This document shows, piece after piece, positions 23,356 to 27,329 of a stretch of 32,000 nucleotides of DNA. Under the pieces are notes generated by a model that saw only the letters and a list, made by a program, of their open reading frames with translations, searched no databases and was not told the DNA's origin. This DNA is from Candidatus Hermodarchaeota archaeon (GTDB lineage Archaea; Asgardarchaeota; Heimdallarchaeia; Hodarchaeales; Hodarchaeaceae): positions 180,001 to 212,000 of the forward strand of contig JBHLKY010000004.1 in the NCBI GenBank assembly GCA_048886185.1. The letters run 5' to 3'. Positions within the stretch are counted from its first letter, which is position 1. Every line of letters starts with the position of its first letter. The position numbers and the translations under genes were made by a program.

Positions 23356-25323
23356 TCAGGATAAGTTAGATCGTATTTTTTCAAAATAATCCAACGATTC
23401 AGGATTTGATAGCGCGCCACGATTTGTAACTGGTTTACCATGGAGAATATTAGTGACAGCAATTTCGACTTTCTTCATGGAAAAAGTATATGGAATGTCA
23501 GGTGTTTCTAAAATTATAGCTGGGACATGTCTCGGAGACGTTTTCTCACGTAATACTTTCCTTATCCGATTTGTTAACTCTTCTGTTAATTTAAAACCAG
23601 GAGTAAGTTTTACAAATAGAATGACCCTTTGATCTCCTTTCCAGTTCTGGCCTATCGCCAGGCTATCTGTTATTTCATGAAACGCCTCAACAACGTTATA
23701 TATTTCGGATGTACCGATTCTCACTCCTGAAGGTTTTAGAATTGCATCAGAACGGCCATACATTGTAAGTCCCCCTGTTTCACTGTGAAGTGCGCAGAAA
23801 TCACCATGTCTCCACACATTTTTTCCAGCGGGTTGATAGAAATCAAAGTAAGCTTGCTTGTATCGTTTATTATCTGGATCATCCCAAAAGTATAGAGGCA
23901 TACTCGGAGAAGGGGTTTCACACACAAGCTCCGCCTGCTGATCCCGCACAGGATTACCTGCTTCATCATAGGCTTCAATTTTCATTCCTAAGGCCCGTAC
24001 TTGAATTTGGCCAGCATATACAGGTAGGATAGCACAACCCCCTGCGAAAATTGCATTTATATCAGAACCACCTGTAATTGAATTGAAATGTAAATCTTTC
24101 TTAATTTCTTTGTATAGCCATTCATTCACTTCAGCCGATATAGGTGAAGCTGTCTGAGAGATTATCCGTAATGAGGATAAATCGAAATCTTTTCTGGGTT
24201 GTACTCCTAAGCCACTGAGATAGTGAAGATAACTTGCACTGGTACCAAAAATTGTTATTTTTTCCTCCTGAATTAATCTCCACATTGCTCCCCAATCAGG
24301 ATATAGAGGATTTCCATCGTAAAGAACAATGGTCGCGCCAGTTGCTAAACAGCTAACTAACCAGTTCCACATCATCCAACTTGGGGATGTAATATAGGTA
24401 ATTACATCATCTCTTTTCAAATCAGTATGAAGCACAGTATCTCTAAGCTGGGTTATAAGAACTCCTCCAGTACTCTGCACCATACATTTAGGTTTTCCTG
24501 TCGTTCCTGATGAAAACATAATATACCCAGGGTGTGTGAAAGGTAATTGTTCGAATTGCATTTTGGGATGTTCATCAGAAGATAAAAAATCTTTAAAATA
24601 GATTGAATTAGGAATATCATTGATTTCAGGTCTTTTTTCCACATATGAGGCAATGATGACTTTTTCAACAGATGGAAGTCCTCTTACTACTTCTTCAACG
24701 TTTTTCAAAGTTGGAAAAGCTCTTCCTTTGTAAAAATATCCATCTCCAGCAAAGAGAATCTTTGGTTTAATTTGTCCTAAGCGATTCAATACTGCTGTTG
24801 GGCCTAATTCAGCTCCACAAGCTGCCCAAGTTGTCCCTATACTTGTAGCCGCAAGCATTGCAACTACAGTTTCTATTAAATTGGGCATATACGCTGCAAC
24901 ATTATCCCCAGAAACAACGCCAAATTCTCTTAATGTCTTCGCCAATCGGCTTACTTGGTTATTGAGCTCAGCGTAGGTCAAAACAGATCGAGTTTGCATT
25001 TCTCCCTTAAAAATAAACGCGATATGGTCATCTTTAAACTTTAAAAGATTCTCTGCAAAATTAAGTCGTGCGCCATCAAACCATTTCAAGTCAAAAAAAG
25101 TATTCAAATTGTCTACGACTTTTGTATAACTTTGAGAGGAAATTATACCTCCAAAATCCCACATTGTAGCCCAAAAATCTTGAATGTTCTCAATCGACCA
25201 GCTATATAGTTGCGAATAAGAACTAATTTTCTGTTTATATTTTTCATTTACAAAGTTAATAAACTGGGTAATATTCGCGTGTTTTAACCACTCTTTAGAG
25301 GGTCTCCAAAGTAGTTTTCCCAA
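23356..25323 (-). CDS. Acetoacetate--CoA ligase (acetoacetyl-CoA synthetase)
   Basis: KLLWRPS, WFDGARLNFAENLL, IMFSSGTTGKPKC, WMMWNWL, WRHGD, YGRSDAILKPSGVRIGTSEIY, KKVEIAV. Confidence 0.93.
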   Translation of the reverse strand: MGKLLWRPSKEWLKHANITQFINFVNEKYKQKISSYSQLYSWSIENIQDFWATMWDFGGIISSQSYTKVVDNLNTFFDLKWFDGARLNFAENLLKFKDDHIAFIFKGEMQTRSVLTYAELNNQVSRLAKTLREFGVVSGDNVAAYMPNLIETVVAMLAATSIGTTWAACGAELGPTAVLNRLGQIKPKILFAGDGYFYKGRAFPTLKNVEEVVRGLPSVEKVIIASYVEKRPEINDIPNSIYFKDFLSSDEHPKMQFEQLPFTHPGYIMFSSGTTGKPKCMVQSTGGVLITQLRDTVLHTDLKRDDVITYITSPSWMMWNWLVSCLATGATIVLYDGNPLYPDWGAMWRLIQEEKITIFGTSASYLHYLSGLGVQPRKDFDLSSLRIISQTASPISAEVNEWLYKEIKKDLHFNSITGGSDINAIFAGGCAILPVYAGQIQVRALGMKIEAYDEAGNPVRDQQAELVCETPSPSMPLYFWDDPDNKRYKQAYFDFYQPAGKNVWRHGDFCALHSETGGLTMYGRSDAILKPSGVRIGTSEIYNVVEAFHEITDSLAIGQNWKGDQRVILFVKLTPGFKLTEELTNRIRKVLREKTSPRHVPAIILETPDIPYTFSMKKVEIAVTNILHGKPVTNRGALSNPESLDYFEKIRSNLS

Positions 25324-25380
25324 ATTTTTTTCCTCAAATTTAAGAAATTTATAGAAAAAAGAAGTTTGGAGATATTGATG

Positions 25381-26046
25381 TCATATACTCCGTTTTAAGA
25401 TTTTAATCCATTCATAAACTGGTTCACATAGCTTTTTGATTCGTTCTTTCTCAGGAGTCATGGGAGATGGACGCCAGCTTGGCTCTGGTTCAAACCAAAA
25501 ATCAATAAGGTTACCAACTCGCTTCTTCTTAGTAAACTTAATAATAACTGGCATATCTGTTTCAACATGCCATGGTTCCTCTATTTTTAATATATTCGCA
25601 ATAGCAGTCTTACTTTCTCCAACAAGAACGTAAGCTAAAACAAAAGGTAGTTTCTTTAACGCGCTCTTGGCTGCAAAACCACAGATGGTGAAAGTATGTA
25701 GAATTCCTGAATGAGGCATTTCAACCCACTCTGTTATTTCAAGTTTACACTCAAGATTCCAACAGTTAACACGGGGGGGAAAAGTAATATCCCCACATTT
25801 TGGGCATCTGGTTCCAAGTAATTTTCCTTCAAGTAATCCTTTAGCATATGGGCTCAAGGCACCCAATCGGAATGTGTATAACATATCATAGTATATTTGT
25901 TGTTCTATCCAGTCAGTACCCCCTGCTGTACCTGCTCGAACATTCTGCCAGACCCATCCTTGTTCAGGTATTAACTCATTTATTTTAGACCATTTTTGCC
26001 AATTGAAATCTTTATTGTTTGGAGTTTGATGTAAATTCTTTTTCAT
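25381..26046 (-). CDS. DUF35-type Zn-ribbon/OB-fold protein (thiolase partner)
   Basis: LLGTRCPKCG.ITFPPR.NC...C, WVEMPHSGILHTFT, PFVLAYV. Directly downstream of the thiolase-fold gene. Confidence 0.9.
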   Translation of the reverse strand: MKKNLHQTPNNKDFNWQKWSKINELIPEQGWVWQNVRAGTAGGTDWIEQQIYYDMLYTFRLGALSPYAKGLLEGKLLGTRCPKCGDITFPPRVNCWNLECKLEITEWVEMPHSGILHTFTICGFAAKSALKKLPFVLAYVLVGESKTAIANILKIEEPWHVETDMPVIIKFTKKKRVGNLIDFWFEPEPSWRPSPMTPEKERIKKLCEPVYEWIKILKRSI

Positions 26047-26057
26047 CTAATATTACC

Positions 26058-27329
26058 TCACGCTCTCTTTAGGATGAAATTGCTAATGGATGTGCCTGTT
26101 CCTGCATGAGAATTGACTAAACCAACTTCAGCATCTTTGACTTCATTTTCTGTTGATCTGTGTTCCCTTGGAATCAAACCTCCAAGTTGATAATAACACT
26201 CAATGGTAGACATCAATCCAGTTGCACCAACTGGATGGCCATATCCAATAAGTCCACCACCAGGATTTGTAGGAATTTCGCCTTCCATCATAGGCATTCT
26301 ATCCTGAATGAATTGTTTGGGAGTAACTGACTCACACCATCCAAGAGCATTATATATTTGGAATTCAGAGGTTGAAAATGCATCATGGACTTCTGCTACA
26401 TCCAAGTACTTATAGGAATCCTTCCATTCAATTCCAGCCATTTTGAATGCGATTTCTGCGGAATGACGACATGCAGCAAACTCGCCTAACCCAGGATAGC
26501 CCTCTCCATATCTTTCTGTCCATCCTGGAAACGCATAACGATCACCTGCACGAATAGTACAAGAGGATAATCCAGCACCAGTAATCTCGACGTAGTGATC
26601 TGGTGAATATTGTTTAGCGAACTGTTCGTTACACACCAAGACCGTAGCAGCTCCCTCAGACATGAAACAACAATCCCACTTCTTTAATGGATATGAAATT
26701 AGTCGACTATTCATGACATCATCCACAGTCATTTTTTTCTCTCCAAGTTTCCTGAAATGTTGTGCCTTTTCACCAGTCGCTGCGGCGTTATTCTTATTTT
26801 TAACCGCTATTTCAGCAAAATCCTCTTCTGTCAGTCCATACTTTTCCATAAATACTCTTGCTAGCCCTGCATAGTAATTTGTATAGTTTGCTCCGAGCAT
26901 TGCTTCATACCTAGTATCTGACGCAATCGCTATGAATTCTGATCCTTTGCTCTGTGAAACTGATCCCATTAATTCATACCCAATTACAGGAACAATGTCT
27001 GCAAGTCCCGCTCGTACGAGAGCATAAGCTGCATACAGAGCTGATCCACCAGTATTACCCCCATTATCAATCCGAAAATGAGGAACTCCAACTAGGCCCA
27101 GATGGTCATGCAATATCCAATAGCTAGTAAGTTGGTGGGCAAAATGCACACTGAAATGACTGTAAACCACCATTCCGTGTTCCCTTACATCTTTCAGATG
27201 AAATTCAGGAACATCAGTATATAATTGACGTATACAATTCGCTACCATCTCTTCGATTTGGAGATTTAAGGGGTAATCGAAGGGTGTGGTAGTCCCTCCT
27301 GCGATATACACCTTTTGTTGTTCTGGCAT
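26058..27329 (-). CDS. Thiolase-fold protein of the SCP2/Ltp type, lacking the nucleophilic Cys
   Basis: IAVKN..NA, CCFMSEGAA, EVHDAF, NPGGGLIGYGHPVGATG. The usual E-x-x-C-A-S-G-G segment reads D-N-G-G-N-T-G-G. Confidence 0.9.
   Translation of the reverse strand: MPEQQKVYIAGGTTTPFDYPLNLQIEEMVANCIRQLYTDVPEFHLKDVREHGMVVYSHFSVHFAHQLTSYWILHDHLGLVGVPHFRIDNGGNTGGSALYAAYALVRAGLADIVPVIGYELMGSVSQSKGSEFIAIASDTRYEAMLGANYTNYYAGLARVFMEKYGLTEEDFAEIAVKNKNNAAATGEKAQHFRKLGEKKMTVDDVMNSRLISYPLKKWDCCFMSEGAATVLVCNEQFAKQYSPDHYVEITGAGLSSCTIRAGDRYAFPGWTERYGEGYPGLGEFAACRHSAEIAFKMAGIEWKDSYKYLDVAEVHDAFSTSEFQIYNALGWCESVTPKQFIQDRMPMMEGEIPTNPGGGLIGYGHPVGATGLMSTIECYYQLGGLIPREHRSTENEVKDAEVGLVNSHAGTGTSISNFILKRA

What the first reader, a model, noticed from the sequence alone, without database searches (positions are those of the whole stretch)
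23356..27329. Cys-less thiolase + DUF35 + acetoacetate-CoA ligase: possible alternative HMG-CoA lyase route
Seen: three co-oriented genes; the thiolase has Gly at the nucleophilic Cys position (27059-27057) but keeps HDAF and GHP; no HMG-CoA synthase is adjacent. Known: Ltp2 with a DUF35 partner is a retro-aldolase of 3-hydroxyacyl-CoA, and HMG-CoA lyase releases acetoacetate by a similar cleavage. Inference: the pair may cleave HMG-CoA or a related tertiary hydroxyacyl-CoA, with the ligase recapturing acetoacetate. That would fit leucine or isoprenoid catabolism in a peptide-feeding organism.
Basis: inference. Interest (0 to 1): 0.68.

Follow-up and report, generated by a model that had tools for sequence, protein, structure and literature searches.

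The report
Cysteine-less thiolase-like enzyme with DUF35 partner
An Asgard archaeon carries a thiolase-shaped protein that has lost both catalytic cysteines, together with its own zinc-ribbon partner. The pair belongs to a large, unstudied family found in archaea and bacteria, it probably cuts or rearranges short acyl-CoA molecules without thiolysis, and the proposed HMG-CoA lyase role is only weakly supported.

Summary
There are three co-oriented genes on the minus strand:
- a 423-aa thiolase-fold protein (26058-27329) with GGT (Gly91) at 27059-27057, where thiolases have the nucleophilic Cys; HDAF and GHP are kept;
- a 221-aa extended DUF35 protein (25381-26046);
- a true acetoacetate-CoA ligase (23356-25323; TIGR01217, 793 bits against a cut-off of 521).

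The Gly is not a local accident. About 100 homologues, and 49 of 80 loci from other genomes, share G-G-x-T, HDA(F/Y), GHP and a new S-H-(A/G)-G-T-G loop. The conserved unit is the thiolase-like gene plus the DUF35 gene. One locus has them fused, and a complex model scores 0.72 against 0.42 for the best control.

The ligase is a variable neighbour, even within the genus, and seems to have its own promoter. Yet a true acetoacetate-CoA ligase flanks the pair in three other distant lineages.

Other recurrent neighbours are an isobutyryl-CoA-type B12 mutase with MeaB, acyl-CoA dehydrogenase, hydratase, 3-hydroxyacyl-CoA dehydrogenase, ordinary thiolases and the methylcitrate genes.

The protein lacks the catalytic tyrosines of the Ltp2 and Sal aldolases. 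Several genomes that carry the family lack the carboxylase needed to make HMG-CoA from leucine.

Most likely it is an uncharacterised non-thiolytic enzyme acting on C4-C6 acyl-CoAs through a thioester enolate. HMG-CoA lyase is a minority reading. This scan has flagged the same family before on other DNA.

The parts
26058..27329 (-). Cys-less thiolase-fold protein (THL0, 423 aa, P0001)
   Evidence: Pfam Thiolase_C_1 79 bits and Thiolase_N 46.5 bits. AlphaFold2 model pLDDT 88.7; best Foldseek matches are the archaeal thiolases 7yvy and 6esq.
27057..27059 (-). GGT codon for Gly91 at the position of the nucleophilic Cys, in the motif D-N-G-G-N-T-G-G
   Evidence: Sequence read, alignment to solved thiolases, invariant in the family.
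26376..26387 (-). HDAF loop (H315-F318). The His is kept; the acid/base Cys of the HDCF motif of SCP2-type thiolases is replaced by Ala.
   Evidence: Ala in 94% of the family, Cys in 97% of canonical archaeal thiolases.
26232..26240 (-). GHP loop (G364-H365-P366), with the oxyanion-hole histidine kept
   Evidence: His365 in 100% of 49 members.
26094..26111 (-). Family-specific loop S407-H408-A-G-T-G, where canonical relatives have N-V-G-G-S-G
   Evidence: H408 invariant and S407 in 94% of the family, both essentially absent from canonical thiolases.
25381..26046 (-). Extended DUF35 partner (DUF35L, 221 aa, P0002), starting 11 nt after the thiolase-like gene's stop
   Evidence: Pfam zf-ChsH2 33.9 bits (cut-off 23.2); OB_ChsH2_C 24 bits, which is below its cut-off of 27.1. 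Matches the DUF35 chain of 6esq. Lies next to the thiolase-like gene in nearly all loci. Complex model ipSAE 0.72 against best control 0.42.
25747..25806 (-). Zinc-ribbon Cys residues C81, C84, C95 and C100 of DUF35L (CxxC-x10-CxxxxC)
   Evidence: Translation and alignment A3. Present in the archaeal subfamily, lost in some Anaerolineae-type members.
23356..25323 (-). Acetoacetate-CoA ligase (655 aa, P0003): a variable neighbour, probably its own transcription unit
   Evidence: TIGR01217 793 bits (cut-off 520.9) and NF002937 844 bits. The 57-nt spacer holds TTTTTT, CTATAAATTT and GAGG before the TTG start.
25324..25380 (-). Spacer between DUF35L and the ligase, with an oligo-T run and a TATA-like box
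   Evidence: Sequence read. That these act as a terminator and a promoter is inference.

Best explanation
The two upstream genes encode a two-subunit enzyme. The thiolase-fold subunit cannot form an acyl-cysteine intermediate, because both catalytic Cys residues are gone. It keeps the two histidines (H315, H365) that polarise a thioester carbonyl and stabilise its enolate, and it has gained His408/Ser407, Tyr149 and His62, which mark the family. The extended DUF35 protein clamps onto the flexible lid (residues about 125-160, 209-216 and 260-268) and completes the enzyme.

The most likely chemistry is non-thiolytic work on a short (C4-C6) acyl-CoA through its enolate. That means an aldol-type C-C lyase or condensing reaction on a 3-hydroxy- or 3-oxo-acyl-CoA, or a closely related enolate reaction. 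The pair would act in the part of metabolism that links isobutyryl/butyryl-CoA, 3-hydroxybutyryl-CoA, acetoacetyl-CoA/acetoacetate and propionyl-CoA.

The neighbouring acetoacetate-CoA ligase feeds or drains the same pool but is not part of the conserved unit.

Shown: loss of both Cys, the family-wide motifs, the conserved pairing, and the recurrent neighbours. Inferred: catalysis by enolate chemistry, and the class of substrate.
For: - Gly91 and Ala317 replace both Cys; H315 and H365 are kept.
- 49 members from Asgard archaea, Thermoplasmata, Bathyarchaeia, Chloroflexota, Nitrospirota, Planctomycetota, Actinomycetota and others share GG-x-T and S-H-(A/G)-G-T-G. Residues H62, Y149, Y152, R260 and H408 are conserved in the family and absent from 35 canonical thiolases. 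This argues for selection on a changed active site or interface, not for decay.
- The DUF35 gene lies next to the thiolase-like gene in essentially every locus, and the two are fused in L084 (581 aa).
- Complex model 0.72 against best control 0.42, a mark reached by 58 of 80 solved complexes and 2 of 110 mismatched pairs. Like complexes have been solved, so the pass may reflect that likeness. One of the three runs gave 0.02, so agreement between runs was reported as at least 0%; the partner's pLDDT was at least 78.
- Neighbours within 7 kb in the 49 loci: acyl-CoA dehydrogenase 13, another thiolase 11, B12 mutase parts/MeaB/CobA 12, AMP-forming ligase 7 (true acetoacetate-CoA ligase 3), PrpD 6 (with PrpB/PrpC), CoA-transferase 5, 3-hydroxyacyl-CoA dehydrogenase 5, enoyl-CoA hydratase 4. 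No ligase hit was found in the 31 canonical-only loci.
- In L041 and L061 the pair sits between the mutase B12 subunit and MeaB.
- The linked mutases carry Phe/Gln where E. coli ScpA has Tyr/Arg.
- In L067 the ligase gene overlaps the DUF35 gene by 14 nt. In L055 the ligase precedes the pair by 38 nt.
Against: - No biochemical data exist for any member.
- No atomic coordinates were available, so I could not check where the family-specific residues lie relative to the active site. R260-D263 and Y152 fall in the predicted DUF35 interface and may be structural.
- The catalytic Tyr residues of the known thiolase-fold aldolases are absent.
- About 21 of the 49 loci, and most archaeal members of the closest subfamily, show no informative acyl-CoA neighbours.
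- The neighbours point to several pathways and do not pin down one reaction.
Confidence: 0.45

Rival explanations
1. The pair is a thiolase-fold substitute for HMG-CoA lyase (or a lyase for another tertiary 3-hydroxy-3-methylacyl-CoA). It releases acetyl-CoA plus acetoacetate, and the ligase next door re-activates the acetoacetate.
For: - No PF00682 (HMGL-like) protein in this 96%-complete genome.
- No canonical HMG-CoA lyase over the cut-off in 5 of 5 other genomes that carry the family.
- A true acetoacetate-CoA ligase flanks the pair in four separate lineages.
- A branched-chain aminotransferase, acyl-CoA dehydrogenase and thiolase lie next to the pair in L055.
- In the Thermoplasmatota locus L037, a three-subunit biotin carboxylase, a geranylgeranyl-reductase-like protein, an acyl-CoA dehydrogenase and a CoA-transferase stand directly upstream.
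- In three Bathyarchaeia loci the pair sits beside the canonical thiolase/DUF35 genes and an HMGCS-like gene.
Against: - 3 of 5 genomes carrying the family, including L067 and L115 with the adjacent ligase, show no PCC/MCC-type carboxyltransferase. They therefore cannot make HMG-CoA from leucine. These are draft genomes.
- This genome has only one carboxyltransferase.
- HMG-CoA lyase was found in only 3 of 14 control genomes, so its absence means little.
- Most loci of the family have no ligase. Within the genus the ligase drifts 8-28 kb away.
- With HMGCS as the only source of HMG-CoA, a lyase plus the ligase would form a futile cycle (inference).
- The catalytic residues differ from every known thiolase-fold aldolase.
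Confidence: 0.12
2. The enzyme is a decarboxylase, epimerase or isomerase that acts at C-alpha of an acyl-CoA, for example (methyl/ethyl)malonyl-CoA decarboxylation as in Cys-less ketosynthase domains. It would serve the mutase and propionyl-CoA genes that often flank it.
For: - The His-His thioester site is kept while the Cys is lost, as in decarboxylating KS-type domains (established knowledge).
- TbSLP, a Cys-less relative, has weak malonyl-CoA decarboxylase activity (PMC12329534).
- The pair is tightly linked to mutase subunits and MeaB, and to prpBCD.
Against: - The linked mutases have the Phe/Gln signature of isobutyryl-CoA-type enzymes, not the Tyr/Arg of methylmalonyl-CoA mutase. A methylmalonyl substrate is therefore unlikely.
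- The canonical methylmalonyl-CoA epimerase is present over the cut-off in 3 of 5 genomes carrying the family.
- The family-specific changes add polar residues, whereas decarboxylase pockets are usually non-polar (inference).
Confidence: 0.15
3. It is still a thiolase of an unusual kind. CoA attacks the 3-oxo group directly in the space left by Gly-Gly, or another residue acts as the nucleophile, so that acetoacetyl-CoA made by the ligase is split into two acetyl-CoA.
For: - A ligase followed by a thiolase is the simplest operon logic (L055, L067).
- Both oxyanion-hole histidines are kept.
- Ser407 sits at the position of the acid/base Cys of biosynthetic thiolases. This alignment is from memory of the thiolase CxGGG loop and is inference.
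Against: - There is no precedent for thiolysis without the Cys.
- No Cys is invariant in the family. The best is C332 at 92%, a position where 31% of canonical thiolases also have Cys.
- Ordinary thiolases are encoded in the same clusters (11 of 49 loci) and three more in this genome, which would make such a role redundant.
Confidence: 0.1
4. It is a non-catalytic pseudo-enzyme: a scaffold, a regulator or an acyl-CoA binding and carrier complex.
For: - Both catalytic Cys are lost.
- DUF35 proteins are scaffolds in the solved complexes (PMC12329534 discussion; bioRxiv 10.1101/2024.07.05.601840).
- Several family-specific residues lie in the predicted subunit interface.
Against: Active-site loops are very strongly conserved across archaea and bacteria at only 35-60% overall identity (GHPVGATG, SHAGTG, HDA(F/Y)). 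In operons the pair is placed among enzymes.
Confidence: 0.08

Closest known systems
Archaeal acetoacetyl-CoA thiolase with DUF35 (thiolase/HMG-CoA synthase/DUF35 complex, PDB 6ESQ; Pyrococcus thiolase 7YVY)
   Same: Closest by sequence (E 8.5e-40 and 1e-32) and by fold (TM 0.8-0.9). Same thiolase-plus-DUF35 gene pair. HD.F, GHP and GATG loops are kept.
   Different: The nucleophilic Cys is Gly and the HDCF Cys is Ala. The N-V-G-G loop becomes S-H-A-G. There is an inserted loop with Y278-P279. The DUF35 partner has about 70 extra N-terminal and 40 extra C-terminal residues. No HMG-CoA synthase is adjacent.
Steroid side-chain retro-aldolases Ltp2-ChsH2(DUF35) (6OK1) and Sal-Shy(DUF35) (9MYR)
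   Same: Thiolase fold, Gly at the nucleophile position, an obligatory DUF35 partner and non-thiolytic chemistry (PMC12329534).
   Different: Ltp2 uses Tyr294 of YDHF and Tyr344; Sal uses Tyr302 and Cys304 of YDCY. Here the motif is HDAF, and the histidine 50 residues downstream (GHP) is kept. Sequence relation is far weaker (E 1.9e-14 and 9e-9; Foldseek ranks 31 and 47). The neighbours are short-chain acyl-CoA genes, not steroid genes.
Trypanosomatid SCP2-thiolase-like protein TbSLP (5AB4-5AB7) and Sulfolobus tokodaii ST0096 (4YZO)
   Same: Thiolase-fold proteins without the nucleophilic Cys and of unsettled function. ST0096 aligns Ser at the Cys position. TbSLP has only weak malonyl-CoA decarboxylase activity.
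   Different: TbSLP has YDCF. ST0096 has different loops (HDMA, MAGYG). Neither carries the GG / SHAGTG signature.
HMG-CoA lyase (HMGL-like TIM barrel, PF00682 / NF004283)
   Different: Unrelated fold and metal-dependent mechanism. This protein has no sequence relation to it, and nothing here shows the activity.

Membership tests
Thiolase superfamily (fold) | Two-domain thiolase fold with N- and C-terminal thiolase domains | tested here: met
   Pfam Thiolase_C_1 and Thiolase_N above their cut-offs. AF2 model pLDDT 88.7; Foldseek E 4e-32 to 7yvy.
Catalytically competent thiolase | Nucleophilic Cys in the (A/S)-C-(A/S)-S-G loop | tested here: not met
   Gly91 (GGT, 27059-27057). Invariant Gly-Gly in 49 family members against Ala-Cys in 35 canonical ones.
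Catalytically competent thiolase | Acid/base Cys (HDCF loop in SCP2/archaeal type, or the CxG loop) | tested here: not met
   HDAF (Ala317), and S407-H408 in place of the N/C position.
Catalytically competent thiolase | Oxyanion-hole His/Asn of the HD.F/NEAF loop and His of GHP | tested here: met
   H315 in 94% and H365 in 100% of the family.
Ltp2/Sal thiolase-fold aldolases | Catalytic Tyr as the first residue of the YD(H/C)(F/Y) motif | tested here: not met
   The motif here is H315-D-A-F. The requirement comes from PMC12329534.
Ltp2/Sal thiolase-fold aldolases | Tyr344 (Ltp2) or Gln352 (Sal) in place of the GHP histidine | tested here: not met
   His365 is kept. The equivalence was inferred from the 50-residue spacing to the first motif, not from a structural superposition.
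Ltp2/Sal thiolase-fold aldolases | Gly at the nucleophile position and an obligatory DUF35 partner | tested here: met
   Gly91; adjacent DUF35 gene; a fusion in L084; complex model 0.72 against 0.42 for the best control.
DUF35 (zf-ChsH2 + OB_ChsH2_C) | Rubredoxin-like zinc ribbon followed by an OB fold | tested here: met
   PF12172 33.9 bits (cut-off 23.2). PF01796 24 bits, below its cut-off of 27.1. Matches 6esq chain E at E 9e-7. Four Cys in a CxxC...CxxxxC pattern.
Acetoacetate-CoA ligase (TIGR01217) | Score above the equivalog cut-off over the full length | tested here: met
   793 bits against 520.9, covering residues 4-651.
HMG-CoA lyase (HMGL-like) | TIM-barrel HMGL-like domain | tested here: not met
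   No PF00682 match in the three proteins or anywhere in the genome. HMG-CoA cleavage activity cannot be tested with these tools.

The most novel reading that the evidence does not exclude
The family is a new class of two-subunit thiolase-fold C-C lyase/aldolase that arose independently of Ltp2 and Sal. It would use a His-His thioester site plus His408/Tyr149 in place of the tyrosine pair. It would perform a so far unassigned step in anaerobic breakdown of branched short-chain acyl-CoAs, coupled to an isobutyryl-CoA-type mutase. One possible version is carboxylase-independent cleavage of a tertiary 3-hydroxy-3-methylacyl-CoA derived from leucine or isoprenoids.
Probability: 0.2. Interest if true: 0.8.

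Novelty: new variant of a known kind. Interest (0 to 1): 0.55.

Why it matters
Databases label these proteins acetyl-CoA acetyltransferase or propanoyl-CoA C-acyltransferase. That label cannot be right for a protein with neither catalytic cysteine. Metabolic reconstructions of Asgard archaea, Thermoplasmata, Bathyarchaeia, anammox bacteria and Chloroflexota therefore count a thiolase that is not there.

The family is large and old, and it is repeatedly tied to a B12 isobutyryl-CoA-type mutase, short-chain beta-oxidation genes, propionyl-CoA sinks and acetoacetate activation. It thus marks an unassigned reaction in amino-acid and short-chain-acid catabolism of sediment anaerobes.

Finding the reaction would also show a second, independent route by which the thiolase fold turned to non-thiolytic chemistry.

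Tried and rejected
- **Selenocysteine or a sequencing slip at the nucleophile.** Rejected: the codon is GGT, and Gly-Gly is invariant in the family.
- **Membership in the Ltp2/Sal clade.** Rejected on catalytic motifs and on similarity ranks.
- **Methylmalonyl-CoA epimerase replacement.** Weakened: the canonical epimerase is present in 3 of 5 genomes carrying the family, and the linked mutases are not of the methylmalonyl type.
- **A conserved thiolase-DUF35-ligase triad.** Rejected as a conserved operon.
- **Fused long forms of the DUF35 partner.** None found with P0002 (the tool calls this weak evidence). 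One thiolase::DUF35 fusion was seen in L084.
- **Literature.** Searches for this clade found no characterisation. An acetone-degradation cluster in Desulfotomaculum holds a DUF35 gene next to an acetyl-CoA acetyltransferase, a mutase, a ligase and a carboxyltransferase (PMC8084838). I could not fetch its sequence to see whether it belongs to this family.
- **Signature residues of isobutyryl-CoA mutase.** The papers were not held, so I checked only the methylmalonyl side, against E. coli ScpA.
- **Phyletic profiles in the class.** The ligase and the mutase occur in families f1 and f6, the pair mainly in f1. This was uninformative.
- **Atlas search.** It returned only automatic thiolase names.
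- **Model coordinates.** They are not available in the Python box, so distances in the active site could not be measured.

Full report
**What is in the window**

The minus strand carries three consecutive ORFs:
- 26058-27329, 423 aa (P0001);
- 25381-26046, 221 aa (P0002), starting 11 nt after the first;
- 23356-25323, 655 aa (P0003), starting 57 nt after the second.

Pfam and NCBIfam identify them as a thiolase-fold protein, a DUF35 zinc-ribbon/OB protein and an acetoacetate-CoA ligase. The ligase scores 793 bits on TIGR01217 against a cut-off of 520.9. Names attached to close homologues (Hodarchaeales, Lokiarchaeota) and an Arf-like GTPase nearby place the window in an Asgard archaeon. The genome held for it has 4.84 Mb and is 96% complete.

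**The observation**

The minus strand reads ...R I D N G G N T G G S A..., and codon 27059-27057 is GGT. HMMER alignments to the solved archaeal thiolases 7YVY and 6ESQ put this Gly91 under the Cys of the C-A-S-G motif. HDAF (315-318) and GHP (364-366) are present. The Cys of the HDCF loop, which is the acid/base in SCP2-type thiolases, is Ala317.

**The Gly defines a family**

All ~100 full-length homologues returned by the protein search carry the same set of motifs, down to 35% identity:
- (E/D)-x-G-G-x-T-G-G;
- HDA(F/Y);
- G-H-P-V-G-A-T;
- a loop S-H-(A/G)-G-T-G.

A scan of one genome per species gave 80 loci. Of these, 49 carry this signature. The other 31 carry only canonical thiolases, and all 35 canonical thiolase genes in the set have A-C-A-S-G, HDCF and N-V-G-G-S-G.

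Column statistics separate the two groups sharply. G90, G91, T93, Y149, R260 and H408 are invariant in the family, and H62, Y152 and S407 are present in 92-94% of its members. All are essentially absent from the canonical group. H315 and H365 are shared with it.

Members occur in Asgard archaea, Thermoplasmata, Bathyarchaeia, Nitrososphaerales, Chloroflexota, Nitrospirota, Scalindua, Acidobacteriota, Actinomycetota and others. Such conservation of active-site loops argues against a decaying gene.

**Fold and nearest relatives**

The AlphaFold2 model is confident (pLDDT 88.7), apart from a lid around residues 123-147. Foldseek ranks archaeal thiolases first, then ST0096, SCP2 thiolases and BbsB. 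Ltp2 is rank 31 and Sal rank 47. Sequence E-values give the same order: 8.5e-40 for 7YVY, 1.9e-14 for Ltp2 and 9e-9 for Sal.

The paper on Sal states that Ltp2 uses Tyr294 (YDHF) and Tyr344, and that Sal uses Tyr302 and Cys304 (YDCY) (PMC12329534). Here the motif is HDAF, and the residue 50 positions downstream is still the GHP histidine. The protein therefore fails the defining catalytic features of the known thiolase-fold aldolases. It shares with them only the Gly at the nucleophile and the DUF35 partner. Loss of the Cys looks independent.

**The conserved unit**

A DUF35 gene follows the thiolase-like gene in nearly every locus examined. In L084 the two are one 581-aa ORF.

The archaeal subfamily closest to the window has a DUF35 protein with conserved N- and C-terminal extensions. 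The zinc-binding Cys residues are present there and are lost in some bacterial members.

A complex prediction scored 0.72 against 0.42 for the best control. That mark was reached by 58 of 80 solved complexes and by 2 of 110 mismatched pairs. One of the three runs failed (0.02), agreement between runs was reported as at least 0%, and the partner's pLDDT was at least 78. Thiolase-DUF35 complexes have been solved, so the pass may reflect that likeness rather than this pair.

The predicted interface covers the poorly modelled lid (125-159), residues 209-216 and residues 260-268. Some family-specific residues (Y152, R260) may therefore serve partner binding rather than catalysis.

**The ligase**

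Within the genus, tblastn shows the ligase next to the pair in three other species besides this genome (L027, L028, L035). In six others the neighbour is CDC48, a PfkB kinase or pyruvate kinase. In several of those genomes the ligase lies 8-28 kb away on the same contig.

In the window, the spacer before the ligase holds an oligo-T run, a TATA-like box and GAGG. This suggests a separate transcript (inference).

A true acetoacetate-CoA ligase, above the TIGR01217 cut-off, nevertheless flanks the pair in three unrelated lineages:
- L067 (Nitrospirae): pair then ligase, with genes overlapping by 14 nt;
- L055 (an archaeon): ligase then pair, with a 38-nt gap;
- L115: convergent.

None of the 31 canonical-only loci has a ligase hit. 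The association is real but facultative.

**Other neighbours**

Counts are loci out of 49, within 7 kb:

| Neighbour | Loci |
|---|---|
| acyl-CoA dehydrogenase | 13 |
| B12 mutase large/small subunit, MeaB or CobA | 12 |
| another thiolase | 11 |
| AMP-forming ligase | 7 |
| PrpD (with PrpB/PrpC in L115, L067, L061) | 6 |
| CoA-transferase | 5 |
| 3-hydroxyacyl-CoA dehydrogenase | 5 |
| enoyl-CoA hydratase | 4 |
| carboxyltransferase | 4 |

In L041 and L061 the pair sits between the mutase B12 subunit and MeaB. In Scalindua the order is hydratase, thiolase, mutase large subunit, mutase small subunit, pair, dehydrogenase.

The linked mutases, and the only mutase of this genome, read R-Q-F-A-G-F and A-Q-K-x-x-I-x-P-P. 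E. coli ScpA reads R-Q-Y-A-G-F and C-R-N-T-Y-I-Y-P-P. From my own knowledge of the family, that Tyr and Arg bind the carboxylate of methylmalonyl-CoA, and Phe/Gln marks isobutyryl-CoA-type mutases. I could not fetch the source papers.

The setting is thus C4-C5 acyl-CoA metabolism: isobutyryl/butyryl-CoA, 3-hydroxybutyryl-CoA, acetoacetyl-CoA and propionyl-CoA sinks. In the archaeal subfamily closest to the window the pair mostly stands alone among unrelated genes.

**The HMG-CoA lyase idea**

For it:
- This genome has no HMGL-like protein at all.
- No canonical HMG-CoA lyase was found in five other genomes carrying the family.
- The ligase recurs next to the pair.
- A branched-chain aminotransferase sits beside the L055 operon.
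- A biotin carboxylase set and a geranylgeranyl-reductase-like gene lie upstream in L037.

Against it:
- Only 3 of 14 control genomes have the lyase, so its absence is weak evidence.
- Three of the five genomes, including L067 and L115, have no PCC/MCC-type carboxyltransferase. This genome has one. Leucine-derived HMG-CoA is therefore doubtful.
- HMGCS lies elsewhere in the genome, and lyase plus ligase acting on its product would be a futile cycle (inference).
- The catalytic residues match no known aldolase.

I put this reading at about 0.12.

**Best reading**

The pair is a two-subunit enzyme that keeps the thioester-polarising histidines, has lost covalent catalysis and has gained a new His/Ser/Tyr set. 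It probably performs non-thiolytic enolate chemistry on a short acyl-CoA, most likely an aldol-type C-C lyase or condensation (0.45). The rivals are:
- a C-alpha decarboxylase, epimerase or isomerase (0.15);
- the HMG-CoA lyase model (0.12);
- an unconventional thiolase acting after the ligase (0.10);
- a non-catalytic scaffold (0.08).

No paper in the library describes this clade. A preprint notes that Asgard genomes carry on average 3.8 thiolase/DUF35 pairs and reads them as possible fatty-acid synthases (bioRxiv 10.1101/2024.07.05.601840). This pair cannot be such a ketothiolase.

This genome has three other thiolases:
- one in a hydratase-reductase-thiolase-DUF35::SDR cluster;
- one with a short DUF35;
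- one bacterial-type thiolase next to an SCP2 gene.

**Earlier notes of this scan**

Several first readers flagged the same family on other genomes. One follow-up on a Methanoperedens locus also reported linkage to an isobutyryl-CoA-type mutase. My neighbourhood analysis was run before I read those notes, and my residue check agrees with that report. Two follow-ups describe a different Cys-less four-protein module that also carries an acetoacetate-CoA ligase. I did not test those.

Noticed in passing
G000:C8:192946-194487 (own genome, outside the window): The genome's only acyl-CoA mutase reads RQFAGF and AQKSYIFPP, where E. coli ScpA has RQYAGF and CRNTYIYPP. It is probably an isobutyryl-CoA-type mutase, not a methylmalonyl-CoA mutase, although the genome also has one PCC-like carboxyltransferase (C13:66067).
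   Followed up: partly
whole own genome: No PF00682 (HMGL-like) match at all in a 96%-complete genome. Besides HMG-CoA lyase, this means no isopropylmalate, citramalate or homocitrate synthase was found, which fits an organism that imports amino acids.
   Followed up: partly
window 106-9184 and 10527-12162, 18009-19886: Oligopeptide ABC transporter parts (ATPase, two permeases, a family-5 binding protein), two alpha/beta hydrolases and an S9 prolyl oligopeptidase: a setting of peptide uptake and breakdown.
   Followed up: no
window 20610-21065 (-): A 151-aa small GTPase matching the Arf and Ras families, typical of Asgard archaea.
   Followed up: no
window 27611-29149 (+): A glycerol-kinase-like FGGY kinase lies divergent to the thiolase-like gene. 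The arrangement is kept in at least five species of the genus (L027, L028, L031, L035, partly L032). Another FGGY kinase lies 7 kb from the pair in a Promethearchaeota locus (L118).
   Followed up: partly
window 29156-31468 (+): A 770-aa N6-adenine DNA methyltransferase of the Eco57I / PglX-like type, with weak matches to BREX and MADS methyltransferases.
   Followed up: no
window 21238-23342 (+): A CitMHS-family anion transporter and an unknown 213-aa protein lie convergent to the ligase. They travel with the ligase in the three closest species (L027, L028, L035), so the ligase may belong with an acid-uptake unit rather than with the thiolase-like pair.
   Followed up: partly
L005 (G000:C9:70000-76500): A cluster of enoyl-CoA hydratase, zinc-ADH-like reductase, a Cys-containing thiolase and a DUF35::short-chain-dehydrogenase fusion. 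It resembles the archaeal fatty-acid synthase complex proposed for Sulfolobus.
   Followed up: no
L048, L049, L051 (Bathyarchaeia): A four-gene array of Cys-less thiolase, long DUF35, canonical thiolase and short DUF35, next to an HMGCS-like gene and a mutase/MeaB/CobA set.
   Followed up: partly
L037 1-11918 (Thermoplasmatota MAG): The closest non-Asgard relative (62% identity) follows biotin carboxylase, BCCP, carboxyltransferase, a geranylgeranyl-reductase-like flavoprotein, an acyl-CoA ligase, an acyl-CoA dehydrogenase and a fused CoA-transferase. This may be a degradation cluster for branched or isoprenoid acids.
   Followed up: partly
L115 (record titled Pedobacter sp.): The contig has many long overlapping ORFs on both strands, as G+C-rich DNA does, which is unusual for Pedobacter. 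The taxonomic label may be wrong.
   Followed up: no
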